From: a virus
Direction: 5' to 3' (one strand)
DNA: 64,000 nucleotides
IMG/VR virus record: IMGVR_UViG_3300045988_070909
Location: 78,626-142,625 of that record
In this document: positions 28,743-29,522 of the stretch, one piece after another
How the letters are laid out: each line of letters starts with the position of its first letter
Position numbering within the stretch: the stretch's first letter is position 1
Position numbers and translations under genes: made by a program
Notes under the pieces: model-generated
Database searches by the model: none
What the model was told of the DNA's origin: nothing
Seen by the model: only the letters and a program-made list of their open reading frames with translations

Positions 28743-28786
28743 TGGACCTAGAGGGCTTTGAACCCCCGACCTCCTGATTATGAGTC
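28743..28786 (-). other. 3' half of a split tRNA(CAU): anticodon loop CTCATAA, T-arm, acceptor TAGGTCC-A
   Basis: Pairs with the 5' half at 29492-29522 (GGACCTA); the HNH ORF stop codon TAA lies inside the anticodon loop. Confidence 0.55.
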
Positions 28787-29323
28787 TTTCTTTCTTATTC
28801 CTTGAATAACTCTGCGAGTTAATCCAAAATGCTGAGCAACTTTCTCCCAATTCTTAAGTATTTCGTACTGCTCATTTACTTCTTCTAGAGAAGGATAATG
28901 TTTATCAGCATCTCTGCATTCCTTAGAACAGTATATCTTACCCTTAGATTTAGGAAATCTTTTGCCGCATACTGGGCATACAGACCCAGTCATATTTTCA
29001 AAAGACGTCTTATCTTTAGCTTCAGTATTAACTAAATCTTCAACTTCGTCCATTCCCAAGTGAGGGTTATGTACTTCTCTATGACAATTAGCGCATAGAA
29101 GTTGACATTTATCTACTTCCTCTTTAAGCCTTTCTAGACTTGTATTAGATAAATGTCTCATATCTAACTGAAACTCTTTCTCATCTGGATTGATATGGTG
29201 AAATTCTAGAACAGCTATGTTTCTATCATAGCTACATAGTTCACATTTACCACCACGAGATTTTATTAGCTCTAATTTGCGCTTTAAACCTCTTAACTTT
29301 TGTGTATTATAATCATTGTAATT
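28778..29323 (-). CDS. HNH homing endonuclease (start trimmed to the MNYNDYN ATG near 29323)
   Basis: CELC...HHINP...LLCANCH HNH motif and C-terminal CPVC...CSKEC; sits between the two halves of a tRNA. Confidence 0.7.
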   Translation of the reverse strand, partial: NYNDYNTQKLRGLKRKLELIKSRGGKCELCSYDRNIAVLEFHHINPDEKEFQLDMRHLSNTSLERLKEEVDKCQLLCANCHREVHNPHLGMDEVEDLVNTEAKDKTSFENMTGSVCPVCGKRFPKSKGKIYCSKECRDADKHYPSLEEVNEQYEILKNWEKVAQHFGLTRRVIQGIRKKDS

Positions 29324-29491
29324 CATATACAAATATATATGAAAATAATCATAATACCAAATGTTTTGGTGCAAAATTAAAAATTCAATCCAGAAGTTGT
29401 AGGGACGGTGGGGTTTGAACCCACGTGCGACCAACTACCCTTTCTACAAGGTATAAGCTTGAGGGGATACGTCCCTATCTGACTCATAATT
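28787..29491 (-). mobile_element. ~705-bp insertion (intron-like or invading homing-endonuclease element) splitting the tRNA(CAU) gene
   Basis: Flanked by complementary tRNA halves; carries the HNH ORF and a tRNA-like segment. Confidence 0.45.
29400..29476 (-). other. tRNA-like element inside the insertion (canonical T-arm/acceptor AGGGACG...CGTCCCT; hairpin with anticodon-like UAU)
   Basis: GTGGGTTCAAACCCCAC T-arm; the D-arm is not canonical. Confidence 0.35.
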
Positions 29492-29522
29492 AGTTGCTCT
29501 GACCTGGCTGAGCTATAGGTCC
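29492..29522 (-). other. 5' half of the split tRNA(CAU): acceptor GGACCTA plus D-arm GCTC-AGCCAGGTCA-GAGC
   Basis: Canonical D-arm; acceptor complementary to the 3' half at 28743. Confidence 0.5.

What the first reader, a model, noticed from the sequence alone, without database searches (positions are those of the whole stretch)
28743..29522. tRNA(CAU) gene split by a ~705-bp HNH-endonuclease-bearing insertion (intron-like)
A canonical tRNA 5' half (acceptor GGACCUA plus D-arm) at 29492-29522 and a matching 3' half (anticodon loop CUCAUAA, T-arm, acceptor UAGGUCC-A) at 28743-28786 are separated by an element carrying the HNH ORF 28778-29323. The ORF's TAA stop codon is formed by the anticodon-loop bases themselves. 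The insertion also contains a tRNA-like segment (29400-29476). This looks like a group-I-type intron with an HNH homing endonuclease in a tRNA anticodon loop, or an invading endonuclease element that disrupted the tRNA. Mature splice junctions could not be placed unambiguously by eye.
Basis: partly seen in the sequence, partly recalled or inferred. Interest (0 to 1): 0.7.

Follow-up and report, generated by a model that had tools for sequence, protein, structure and literature searches.

The report
Endonuclease cassette splitting a phage tRNA
A gut-phage tRNA gene is cut in two by a 705-bp selfish DNA cassette that is not a self-splicing intron, and the cassette carries an HNH nuclease plus an unannotated tRNA-like RNA with its D-stem strands in a rearranged order.

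Summary
On the minus strand, 29522-29492 and 28786-28743 are the two parts of one tRNA(CAU). A related contig holds the same tRNA uninterrupted, so the insertion is exactly 28787-29491 (705 bp). It lies between tRNA nucleotides 29 and 30, in the anticodon stem rather than the loop.

The intron reading is not supported:
- No group I or II model matches.
- The last inserted base is A, not G.
- There is no U·G pair at the 5' junction and no bulge-helix-bulge.
- The 3' 549 nt are an HNH gene that also occurs free-standing.

The same 705-bp unit, 93.5-99.1% identical, sits at the same position in different tRNA(CAU) genes of nine contigs, several with unrelated flanks. Flank co-conversion and decayed or deleted copies are also seen. 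This fits a homing-endonuclease cassette that uses the tRNA pieces as homology arms. The tRNA is probably not restored.

One feature stays unexplained. Insertion nt 2-11 exactly complement the first 10 nt of the 3' piece, giving a predicted 13-position extended anticodon helix.

The nested "tRNA-like" segment (29400-29476) belongs to a strongly covarying, unannotated phage RNA family. It has all tRNA modules, but the D-stem strands flank the anticodon arm. Anticodons are UAU or GAU (Ile), once UCU.

The parts
29492..29522 (-). 5' piece of tRNA(CAU), nucleotides 1-29 (31 nt: acceptor GGACCUA, D arm, A26, A27-C28-U29)
   Evidence: Contiguous BLAST match to the intact tRNA L001:2383-2413. Sequence read. 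Acceptor stem pairs with the 3' piece at P about 1 in the fold of the full precursor.
28787..29491 (-). 705-bp inserted mobile cassette
   Evidence: Absent from the syntenic L001. Exactly 705 nt and 93.5-99.1% identical in nine IMG/VR contigs, several of which have unrelated flanks.
29481..29490 (-). Left inverted-repeat arm AUUAUGAGUC (insertion nt 2-11). Together with the 5' exon, the left junction reads as an anticodon arm whose loop is inverted.
   Evidence: Exact reverse complement of 28777-28786. Predicted pairing probability 0.92-0.995 in the 780-nt precursor. The variants in L003 and L007 keep the pairing through G·U.
29400..29476 (-). Cargo gene: a 77-nt rearranged tRNA-like RNA with anticodon loop CUUAUAC (UAU). 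The D-stem strands lie on either side of the anticodon arm and the D-loop-like AGUUGGU follows them.
   Evidence: Rfam tRNA 31.7 bits, aligned with the D arm deleted and an 18-nt insert. Not called by ARAGORN. In the family alignment of 27 sequences, 98.9% of cells pair, 17/21 pairs show compensatory change, and 0/500 shuffles reach this.
29330..29361 (-). Promoter-like motif TTTG-N20-TATATTTG, which fits the Bacteroidota -33/-7 consensus, ending 3 nt before the HNH ATG
   Evidence: Read directly. An equivalent TTTG-N19-TATCTTTG precedes the HNH gene in L012 and L013. Function is inferred, not tested.
28778..29326 (-). HNH homing-endonuclease gene (182 codons plus stop). The HNH-zinc motif is N-terminal; a zinc ribbon and helix-turn-helix-like tail are C-terminal. 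The last three codons GAC UCA UAA are tRNA nt 30-38.
   Evidence: ORF listed. PHROG 2255 at 1.6e-24. Pfam HNH at 1.2e-3. Relatives at 56-99% identity.
28743..28786 (-). 3' piece of tRNA(CAU), nucleotides 30-73 (G30 A31, loop CUCAUAA, UCAGG, variable loop, T arm, acceptor UAGGUCC, A73)
   Evidence: Contiguous BLAST match to L001:2414-2458 at 44/45. Sequence read.
28777..28786 (-). Right inverted-repeat arm GACUCAUAAU (tRNA nt 30-39, including the anticodon)

Best explanation
The locus is a phage tRNA(CAU) gene interrupted between nt 29 and 30 by a 705-bp DNA-level mobile cassette. It is not an RNA intron.

The cassette holds four things:
- a 15-nt left end that contains an inverted copy of the anticodon loop;
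- a gene for a rearranged tRNA-like RNA with a UAU anticodon loop;
- a promoter-like motif;
- an HNH endonuclease gene that runs 9 nt into the 3' tRNA piece.

Proposed mechanism. The HNH enzyme cuts intact tRNA(CAU) genes in or near the conserved anticodon arm. The break is repaired from a filled copy, and the 31-nt and 44-nt tRNA pieces serve as the homology arms. The whole unit, with variable lengths of flanking tRNA sequence, is thereby copied into new tRNA(CAU) genes, including non-syntenic ones. The split tRNA is most likely not rejoined. Over time it decays or is deleted.

The loss may be tolerated because the host supplies the tRNA. If the target is tRNA-Ile2, the cargo RNA would read the same AUA codon and could offset the loss.

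Shown: the exact insertion, presence/absence polymorphism, element conservation against flanks, co-conversion, decay, lack of intron features, and the covarying cargo RNA family. Inferred: the cleavage specificity of the HNH enzyme, absence of splicing, promoter use, and any compensation by the cargo.
For: Exact empty site in the syntenic contig L001.

The intact target sequence AGAGCARCTGACTCATAATCAG occurs in more than 120 viral contigs. These include 150-190 kb contigs from the same sample set, so filled and empty alleles coexist.

Nine full copies are all 705 nt and 93.5-99.1% identical. Their 1-kb flanks are unrelated or only partly alignable at 71-80% (L007, L009 and L010 have at least one flank with no similarity). 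Several copies (L002, L004, L005) keep one closely similar flank.

The host tRNAs differ: acceptor stems are GGACCUA/UAGGUCC, GGGCCUC/GAGGCCC and GGGCCUA/UAGGCCC.

Co-conversion:
- L005 has a native 5' piece (compare the intact tRNA in L119) joined to a donor-type 3' piece.
- L010 keeps its native 3' stem strand UGUCA, so the joined anticodon stem would have only 1 of 5 pairs.

Decay and deletion:
- L016 has lost most of the T arm from its 3' piece.
- L005 has a GGGGGGGGG run in the T stem.
- L014/L027 have a truncated HNH gene.
- L026 and L033 keep the 5' piece, the repeat and the cargo RNA but have lost the HNH gene, the 3' piece and neighbouring genes.

More distant HNH relatives:
- L011 has both pieces but lacks nt 27-32.
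- L012 and L013 have only the 3' piece, and no 5' piece within 3 kb.
- L017 and L015 have the cargo RNA plus HNH with no tRNA pieces at all.

No intron signature: no Rfam hit at E<=10, and no terminal G, U·G pair or BHB. HNH family assignment.
Against: Insertion nt 2-11 pair perfectly with 3' piece nt 1-10. Together with pairs 28-42 and 29-41 this gives a 13-position helix (12 pairs and one A·C mismatch) that brings the two junctions onto one guide strand, in a P1/P10-like geometry. Pairing probabilities are 0.85-0.995. A purely DNA-level model does not require this helix.

The only variants of the repeat (two changes in L003, GG in L007) keep the pairing through G·U or G-C.

Most full copies still have cloverleaf-competent halves.

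There are no RNA data, no cleavage assay, and only about a third of the genome is in the window. A phage RNA ligase elsewhere cannot be excluded, and a 2H phosphoesterase gene lies 16 nt downstream.
Confidence: 0.75

Rival explanations
1. It is a self-splicing group I (or group II) intron carrying a homing endonuclease. The RNA excises itself and restores the tRNA.
For: HNH-bearing group I introns are known in bacterial tRNA anticodon loops (PMC13011429). The 5' piece ends in U. A guide-like stretch pairs with 10 nt of the 3' exon and 2 nt of the 5' exon. RF00028 is reported to miss some tRNA introns.
Against: No group I or II model hits at E<=10 with relaxed filters. The last intron nt is A, not G. 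U29 would pair with A, not G. The insertion is in the stem (29/30), whereas all known bacterial tRNA group I introns are in the loop. No non-coding RNA lies between the ORF and the 3' junction. The 5' 165 nt are filled by an independent RNA gene plus a promoter-like spacer. The HNH gene is homologous to free-standing copies (L017, L015).
Confidence: 0.03
2. It is a new kind of protein-dependent tRNA intron. The 13-position extended anticodon helix presents both junctions to host or phage nucleases and an RNA ligase, which rebuild a working tRNA(CAU).
For: The long-range helix is predicted with high probability. G·U-preserving variants are seen in L003 and L007. The outer acceptor, D and T arms fold correctly around the insertion. 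A 2H phosphoesterase (tRNA-ligase CPD-like, 5.5e-8) is encoded 16 nt downstream.
Against: There is no bulge-helix-bulge. No RNA ligase, RtcB or kinase domain was found in 46 window ORFs. The 2H gene is equally present next to the intact tRNA in L001, and in L026/L033 the whole stretch that holds it in the window is replaced together with the 3' piece. L010 would give a tRNA with a broken anticodon stem. L011, L012 and L013 cannot be rejoined at all. The repeat can also be explained as a flipped hairpin loop at the DNA level.
Confidence: 0.08
3. The halves are kept for another role and no tRNA is rebuilt. For example, the 5' piece plus repeat acts as the leader or transcription unit for the cargo RNA, and the 3' piece acts as a structured 3' end for the HNH mRNA.
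For: L026 and L033 retain the 5' piece, the repeat and the cargo RNA after losing everything downstream. L012 and L013 retain the HNH gene plus the 3' piece without a 5' piece.
Against: These patterns are equally expected from random deletion in a decaying element. L017 and L015 express the same two genes without either piece. There is no sequence constraint beyond what recent spread explains.
Confidence: 0.07

Closest known systems
Free-standing homing endonuclease genes in phage tRNA clusters (T4 SegB; HNH-type F-TflI/II/IV of T5), and intronless homing in general (named from my own knowledge; only lists the T4 mobile-element review PMC2988022, which I did not read)
   Same: A phage-encoded endonuclease gene with its own promoter-like signal, sitting in a tRNA array. 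It is present or absent between close relatives, spreads by break repair and co-converts flanking markers.
   Different: Those genes lie between tRNA genes and leave them intact. This one lies inside a tRNA gene, at 29/30. Its ORF ends in the anticodon loop, it carries an RNA gene as cargo, and its only homology arms at ectopic sites are the 31-nt and 44-nt tRNA pieces.
Group I introns with HNH, LAGLIDADG or PD-(D/E)XK genes in bacterial tRNA anticodon loops (PMC13011429)
   Same: A tRNA gene interrupted near the anticodon by an element that encodes a homing endonuclease. A guide-like stretch pairs with the exon sequence.
   Different: No ribozyme core, no terminal G and no U·G pair. The position is in the stem, not the loop. 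Splicing is unlikely.
Fractured genes: homing endonuclease genes lodged between the halves of split genes (PMC2677866)
   Same: A nuclease gene sits between two halves of a gene with no intron or intein core around it.
   Different: There the halves are rejoined at the protein level by split inteins. No rejoining mechanism is evident here.
Archaeal split tRNA genes and non-canonical BHB introns, including introns at 29/30 (PMC4090602, PMC3978253)
   Same: The interruption is in the anticodon stem. Complementary sequence zips the two parts into an extended helix.
   Different: No bulge-helix-bulge, no splicing endonuclease context, a bacterial virus, and 705 nt with an ORF.
For the cargo RNA: D-armless mitochondrial tRNAs and circularly permuted tRNA genes (PMC9427863, PMC3978253)
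   Same: A tRNA whose gene does not encode a standard cloverleaf. Rfam aligns it as a D-arm-deleted tRNA.
   Different: All the modules are present, but the chain order appears to be 1-9, 22-43, linker, 10-21, 48-76. This is a segment transposition, not a loss and not a circular permutation. It is found in bacteriophages, whereas PMC11551756 states that all known bacterial tRNAs are canonical cloverleaves.

Membership tests
Group I intron | Conserved catalytic core (P3-P9) detectable by a covariance model | tested here: not met
   No RF00028 or other intron hit in 28400-29900 at E<=10 with relaxed filters. The non-coding space is filled by an independent RNA gene and an AT-rich spacer.
Group I intron | Terminal G at the 3' end of the intron | tested here: not met
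   The insertion ends ...GAAAGAAA and its last base, 28787, is A. The junction is fixed by the intact allele.
Group I intron | The 5' exon ends in U, paired with G in P1 | tested here: not met
   U29 is present, but the only contiguous guide register pairs it with A (insertion nt 12).
Group I intron | An internal guide sequence pairs with both exons (P1/P10) | tested here: inconclusive
   There is a 10-bp P10-like pairing and a 2-bp P1-like pairing on one strand. The same sequence is equally explained as an inverted anticodon loop.
Group II intron | 5' GUGYG, 3' AY, and domain V | tested here: not met
   The insertion starts AAUUAUG and ends AAA. No Rfam group II hit.
Archaeal/eukaryal protein-spliced tRNA intron | Bulge-helix-bulge: two 3-nt bulges separated by 4 bp at the splice sites | tested here: not met
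   In the predicted precursor the 5' junction lies inside a continuous helix next to a single A·C mismatch. The 3' junction lies at the helix end, 11 positions away.
HNH homing endonuclease gene (mobile, DNA-level) | HNH nuclease motif | tested here: met
   PHROG 2255 'HNH endonuclease' at 1.6e-24. Pfam PF01844 at 1.2e-3 (19.4 bits, just under the cutoff). CxxC...HH...N...CxxCH is visible in the sequence.
HNH homing endonuclease gene (mobile, DNA-level) | Presence/absence polymorphism at one precise site in related genomes | tested here: met
   Empty site in the syntenic L001. Nine complete 705-bp copies plus the window, and four truncated or partly sampled copies (L014/L027, L016, L026, L033), all at 29/30 where the junction is held. 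More than 120 contigs carry the intact site.
HNH homing endonuclease gene (mobile, DNA-level) | The element is much more conserved than its flanks | tested here: met
   Insertion 93.5-99.1% identical. The 1-kb flanks are unrelated or only partly alignable at 71-80% in most contigs, though L002, L004 and L005 each keep one closely similar flank.
HNH homing endonuclease gene (mobile, DNA-level) | Co-conversion of flanking sequence | tested here: met
   L005 is a hybrid tRNA (compare L119). L010 and L007 have donor-type nt 27-31 joined to native distal sequence.
HNH homing endonuclease gene (mobile, DNA-level) | The enzyme cleaves the empty allele | not testable with these tools
   Needs a biochemical assay.
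Canonical tRNA (RF00005), for the cargo RNA at 29400-29476 | 7-bp acceptor stem, T arm with a UUCRANY-type loop, and an anticodon arm with a 7-nt loop carrying U33 and R37 | tested here: met
   Loop is CUUAUAC and the discriminator A is invariant.
Canonical tRNA (RF00005), for the cargo RNA at 29400-29476 | A D-arm hairpin between nt 9 and 26 | tested here: not met
   The two strands of the covarying 3-bp helix (CCC/GGG, CUC/GAG, CCG/CGG, ACC/GGU) enclose the anticodon arm. The D-loop-like A-R-Y-U-G-G-U follows the 3' strand. ARAGORN does not call it. The Rfam model deletes the D arm.
Canonical tRNA (RF00005), for the cargo RNA at 29400-29476 | Aminoacylation and use in translation | not testable with these tools
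   Indirect support only. Anticodons are UAU (24) and GAU (2), both Ile, plus UCU (1) in the 27 aligned sequences; a further divergent member, L129, also has UAU. It sits in tRNA arrays, for example between tRNA-Trp and tRNA-Met in Kehishuvirus tikkala.

The most novel reading that the evidence does not exclude
The cargo RNA is a working tRNA-Ile in which the 5' half of the D arm (nt 10-21) has been transposed to lie after the anticodon arm, while the tertiary contacts are kept. These contacts are a U8-A14-like pair, an R15-Y48-like pair that covaries (A-U in 23 sequences, G-C in 4), and the G18 G19-like GG. That would make it the first natural non-cloverleaf tRNA used in bacterial translation.

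In this reading the HNH cassette carries it as a nuclease-resistant replacement for the AUA-reading tRNA-Ile2(CAU) gene that it destroys. The cassette would then pay its host back with a substitute gene rather than by splicing.
Probability: 0.35. Interest if true: 0.85.

Novelty: new variant of a known kind. Interest (0 to 1): 0.6.

Why it matters
Homing endonuclease genes normally avoid damaging their host gene. They either ride inside a self-splicing intron or intein, or they sit between genes. Here one sits inside a tRNA gene with no ribozyme. It spreads between unrelated tRNA(CAU) loci using only about 30-45 nt of tRNA sequence on each side, and it carries an RNA gene as cargo. That widens the known ways these elements reshape phage tRNA arrays. 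It also explains orphan tRNA halves in phage genomes.

The cargo matters more. It is a conserved, covarying RNA with every tRNA module but a rewired D stem. It occurs in at least 44 deposited phage genomes and is unannotated in every listed record but one. Two hosts are cultured: the crAss-like Kehishuvirus tikkala and about 40 Streptomyces phages such as Jay2Jay. Whether bacterial translation can use a non-cloverleaf tRNA is therefore directly testable.

Tried and rejected
Things tried that gave nothing or were rejected:

1. Rfam at E<=10 over 28400-29900 found no intron family, only tRNA/tmRNA-like hits to the acceptor and T arms.
2. I looked for a bulge-helix-bulge in the predicted precursor. 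There is none.
3. I scanned 46 window ORFs against Pfam for RNA ligase, RtcB or polynucleotide kinase. Only a 2H phosphoesterase turned up. The same gene lies next to the intact tRNA in L001, so it is not tied to the insertion.
4. I searched 3 kb upstream in L012 and L013 for a matching 5' tRNA piece. None was found.
5. I looked for intact relatives of the L007 and L010 host tRNAs using a 27-nt pattern. It returned mostly CCA-encoding tRNA(CAU) genes, several truncated after the anticodon loop, which look like bacterial genes at prophage ends. Only L240 was informative about a GCACA/UGUGA-type stem.
6. The genome-contig scan with TATCYSCTCNNNCTTATAC was too unspecific. About 118 of 120 returned loci were chance matches. 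Only L368 and L423 are real members, so I cannot say how common the cargo RNA is in cellular genomes.
7. PDB sequence search with the HNH protein gave nothing significant.
8. Four literature searches for HNH-split phage tRNAs or rearranged, D-armless phage tRNAs found no description. Only the held library was searched.
9. I considered that the left junction arose by inversion between two inverted tRNA genes. I rejected this because such an inversion would leave complete tRNAs. A flip of the hairpin loop, or duplication of the arm, fits better but is unproven.
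Full report
**Setting.** The window is AT-rich (35.7% G+C). It carries 26 ARAGORN tRNA genes, nearly all on the minus strand. It also has a tmRNA match, a RAGATH-14 RNA and two suppressor-type tRNAs. Its NAMPT-like protein is closest to those of crAss-like Bacteroides phages. The near relatives are 150-280 kb IMG/VR gut contigs. It is therefore part of a large gut phage, probably infecting Bacteroidota.

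**Checking the observation.** On the minus strand, 29522-29492 reads GGACCUA-UA-GCUC-AGCCAGGUCA-GAGC-A-ACU. The stretch 28786-28743 reads GA-CUCAUAA-UCAGG-AGGUC-GGGGG-UUCAAAG-CCCUC-UAGGUCC-A. The human-faecal contig MT838061.1 (L001) is syntenic on both sides. It holds one uninterrupted tRNA(CAU) at L001:2383-2458. Its first 31 nt align to the window's 5' piece and its next 45 nt to the 3' piece, with nothing in between.

The insertion is thus exactly 28787-29491 (705 bp), between tRNA nt 29 and 30. This is in the 5' strand of the anticodon stem, not in the loop. The junction cannot be slid, because the neighbouring bases differ.

The HNH ORF runs 29326-28778, and its last codons GAC UCA UAA are tRNA nt 30-38. 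The HNH assignment rests on PHROG 2255 (1.6e-24) and a marginal Pfam HNH hit. The nested tRNA-like segment 29400-29476 passes the Rfam tRNA threshold.

**Is it an intron?** Several lines say no.
- Rfam with relaxed filters and E<=10 finds no group I or II family in 28400-29900.
- The insertion ends in A, so there is no terminal G.
- U29 would pair with A, not G.
- Known bacterial tRNA group I introns lie in the anticodon loop, not the stem (PMC13011429).
- There is no room for a ribozyme. The 165 nt before the ATG are 15 nt, then a 77-nt RNA that exists as an independent gene in many phages, then a 73-nt AT-rich spacer. The spacer holds a TTTG-N20-TATATTTG motif of the Bacteroidota promoter type.
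- The remaining 540 nt of the insertion, up to the 3' junction, are coding.
- The same HNH gene preceded by the same RNA occurs with no tRNA pieces around it in L017 (71% identity) and L015 (58%).
- The predicted precursor has no bulge-helix-bulge.

**Evidence that it is a DNA-level mobile cassette.** Nine IMG/VR contigs hold the insertion at the same position. In every one it is exactly 705 nt and 93.5-99.1% identical to the window. Their 1-kb flanks are often unrelated (L007, L009, L010) or alignable over only about half their length at 71-80%. Some copies (L002, L004, L005) keep one closely similar flank.

The interrupted tRNAs differ between contigs:
- GGACCUA/UAGGUCC in the window type
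- GGGCCUC/GAGGCCC with a different T arm in L007
- GGGCCUA/UAGGCCC in L010

Where flanks are unrelated, the only shared sequence around the element is the tRNA itself. The 31-nt and 44-nt pieces must therefore have served as the homology arms.

Co-conversion is visible. L005 joins a GGGCCUG 5' piece to a window-type 3' piece ending UAGGUCC; the intact form of that tRNA, ending CAGGCCC, is in L119. L010 has donor-type ACU|GA joined to its native 3' stem strand UGUCA, so its joined anticodon stem would keep only 1 of 5 pairs.

The intact target AGAGCARCTGACTCATAATCAG is present in more than 120 viral contigs. These include large contigs from the same sample set, so empty and filled alleles coexist.

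**Evidence that the split tRNA is dispensable.**
- L016 has a 3' piece that has lost most of its T arm.
- L005 has an expanded G run in the T stem.
- L014/L027 have an HNH gene truncated mid-ORF with a CANCH-to-CANSH change.
- L026 and L033 keep the 5' piece, the 15 nt and the cargo RNA. They have lost the HNH gene, the 3' piece, two ORFs and a tRNA-Leu.
- In older HNH lineages, L011 (64%) lacks tRNA nt 27-32 and holds a complete canonical tRNA(CAU) in place of most of the cargo.
- L012 and L013 (56-57%) have a canonical tRNA-Ile(UAU), then the HNH gene, then an orphan 3' piece. No 5' piece lies within 3 kb.
- Every relative in L011, L012, L013 and L017 also ends TCA-stop, but L015 does not. 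The right junction therefore coincides with a microhomology to the anticodon loop.

**What remains unexplained.** Insertion nt 2-11 (AUUAUGAGUC) are the exact reverse complement of the first 10 nt of the 3' piece (GACUCAUAAU). In a fold of the whole 780-nt precursor these pairs have probability 0.92-0.995. They stack on native pairs 28-42 and 29-41. The outer acceptor, D and T arms also form. The RNA would therefore be a tRNA with a 13-position extended anticodon stem (12 pairs and one A·C mismatch) in which the anticodon is masked, capped by a 694-nt loop.

The next two bases of the same strand (AG) could pair with C28-U29, which is a P1/P10-like geometry. L003 has two changes in this stretch and L007 has GG at its start, and all of them keep pairing through G·U or G-C.

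I read the left junction (ACUAA-UUAUGAG-UCAGA) as a copy of the anticodon arm whose loop has been flipped. Palindromic hairpins are prone to this DNA-level event. It would also destroy a nuclease site and remove a direct repeat. This reading is inference, and an RNA-level role is not excluded. I give about 0.08 to protein-assisted rejoining and 0.03 to self-splicing.

No RNA ligase, RtcB or kinase domain was found in 46 window ORFs. The 2H phosphoesterase gene 16 nt downstream (28311-28727, two HxTx motifs) also lies next to the intact tRNA in L001.

**Identity of the interrupted tRNA.** ARAGORN calls CAU tRNAs Met. The joined sequence has C4-G69 and C5-G68. Acceptor-stem pairs of this kind are TilS identity elements (PMC11947777; the E. 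coli 4:69 and 5:68 detail is from my own knowledge). All of its best full-length matches in 5,426 E. coli genomes are genes that PGAP annotates as tRNA-Ile. The one I opened (H83) has a CAU anticodon loop and lies beside a tRNA-Arg gene. The window's other two CAU tRNAs look initiator-like.

The target may therefore be tRNA-Ile2, which reads AUA. AUA makes up 12.5 per 1000 codons in 15 window ORFs. In every lineage examined the HNH gene travels with a tRNA that could read AUA:
- the rearranged UAU RNA
- a canonical tRNA-Ile(UAU)
- a canonical CAU tRNA with the same C4/C5 signature

This suggests the cargo offsets the damage. That is a hypothesis, not a result.

**The cargo RNA.** A pattern scan and then a covariance model (R1) recovered the 77-nt RNA in many unrelated viral contigs. 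It was also found in deposited phage genomes.

RNAalifold independently predicts the structure I had drawn by eye:
- a 7-bp acceptor stem, followed by U8 A9 U
- a 3-bp helix
- 2 nt, then a 4-bp stem (plus a U·U) with a 7-nt loop CUUAUAC
- U-AGAAA, then the 3' strand of the 3-bp helix
- U-A-R-Y-U-G-G-U-Y-R-C-A-Y
- a T arm and a discriminator A

On 27 distinct sequences, 98.9% of cells pair and 17 of 21 pairs show compensatory change. All three pairs of the short helix covary (CCC/GGG, CUC/GAG, CCG/CGG, ACC/GGU). No shuffle out of 500 reaches the observed values, and slid registers collapse to 40-46% paired.

Two single tertiary-type pairs that I proposed also hold. U8 with the A that follows the helix is invariant. 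The next purine pairs with the last base before the T stem as A-U in 23 sequences and G-C in 4, with no exception, as expected for the 15-48 Levitt pair. An invariant pair carries no information by itself.

The simplest reading is a tRNA whose chain order is 1-9, 22-43, a linker, 10-21, then 48-76. The D stem forms, but its 3' strand comes first and leads straight into the anticodon stem. Its 5' strand and the D loop follow the anticodon arm. Geometrically this removes the sharp turn after nt 9 and keeps every element of the elbow. That point is inference from the known tRNA structure.

Anticodon loops among the 27 aligned sequences (a further divergent member, L129, also has UAU):

| Anticodon | Amino acid | Sequences | Where |
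|---|---|---|---|
| UAU | Ile | 24 | most members |
| GAU | Ile | 2 | Streptomyces phage Jay2Jay; crAss-like Kehishuvirus tikkala |
| UCU | Arg | 1 | L165 |

In Kehishuvirus tikkala the RNA lies in the 90-nt gap between the annotated tRNA-Trp and tRNA-Met. It is unannotated in every listed record but one (EGole and its RefSeq copy, where a 'tRNA-Leu' is listed under the match) of the 44 matching phage genomes, and ARAGORN misses it. The Rfam tRNA model aligns it only by deleting the D arm and inserting 18 nt.

HNH genes adjoin it in several unrelated contexts. They lie upstream in L047 and L056, on the opposite strand in L058, and downstream in this lineage. In other phages no HNH gene is nearby. 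I found no description of such a tRNA in the held literature. A 2024 paper states that all known bacterial tRNAs are canonical cloverleaves (PMC11551756).

**Verdict.** The finding is real, and its second interpretation is right: an HNH homing-endonuclease cassette has invaded and split a phage tRNA(CAU) gene. It is a new variant of a known kind of element, for three reasons: it lies inside an RNA gene, it has no ribozyme, and it carries cargo. The perfect junction-spanning helix keeps a small door open for RNA-level rejoining. The most valuable by-product is the cargo, a conserved and apparently undescribed rewired tRNA-like RNA that can be tested in cultured phages.

Noticed in passing
window 20146-20700 (-): The Rfam tmRNA match (73.4 bits) spans 555 nt against a 374-position model, and ARAGORN reports no tmRNA. 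The phage tmRNA gene may carry an insertion.
   Followed up: no
window 41376-41446 (-), 41473-41679 (-), 44477-44549 (+), and the + strand beyond about 44.5 kb: Suppressor-type tRNAs are present (anticodons UUA and CUA), one of them next to a RAGATH-14 RNA. The + strand region after 44.5 kb has almost no long ORFs in the standard code. This suggests stop-codon recoding of a late-gene block.
   Followed up: no
window 28311-28727 (-): A 138-aa 2H phosphoesterase is encoded 16 nt downstream of the split tRNA. It matches the tRNA-ligase CPD domain at 5.5e-8 and has the motifs HCTL and HITI. The same gene lies next to the intact tRNA in L001, so it is not tied to the insertion. It could be a tRNA-repair or anti-defence enzyme.
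   Followed up: partly
window 19349-19900 (-): A second, unrelated HNH endonuclease ORF (Pfam HNH_2) lies between tRNA genes of the same array.
   Followed up: no
L012:3001-3531, L013:3001-3519, L015:3001-3516: The HNH homologues contain in-frame TGA at a conserved Trp position (L012, L013) and in-frame TAG at a conserved Gln position (L015). These related phages therefore use different recoded genetic codes.
   Followed up: partly
L012:2631-2737: A tRNA-like sequence has an insert of about 40 nt forming a stem in the variable region. ARAGORN does not call it.
   Followed up: no
L040:7340-7440, L049, L055, L061, L067: Canonical-looking tRNA(UAU) genes carry a 19-21 nt insertion inside the anticodon loop. 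These may be short protein-spliced-type introns, perhaps in archaeal or eukaryotic viruses.
   Followed up: no
L086:6028-6096 (also L102, L104, L161, and downstream of the split tRNA in L004): A 69-nt odd tRNA-like RNA (GAGCCUA...UAGGUUCA) has acceptor and T arms but no normal D or anticodon arm. It lies right after the tRNA(CAU) gene in relatives of this phage.
   Followed up: no
window 22311-22384 and 23510-23589 (-): The two other CAU tRNAs look initiator-like (CGCGGG.../CUCAUAACC) and have irregular D or T regions. With the split gene, the window holds no obviously intact elongator CAU tRNA.
   Followed up: partly
NC_029098.1 75237-75313 (L428:1195-1271); OQ198717.1 95577-95653 (L429:1495-1571): Cultured phages (Streptomyces phage Jay2Jay with about 40 relatives, and the crAss-like Kehishuvirus tikkala) carry the rearranged tRNA-like RNA with a GAU anticodon loop. 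It is unannotated in every listed record but one.
   Followed up: yes
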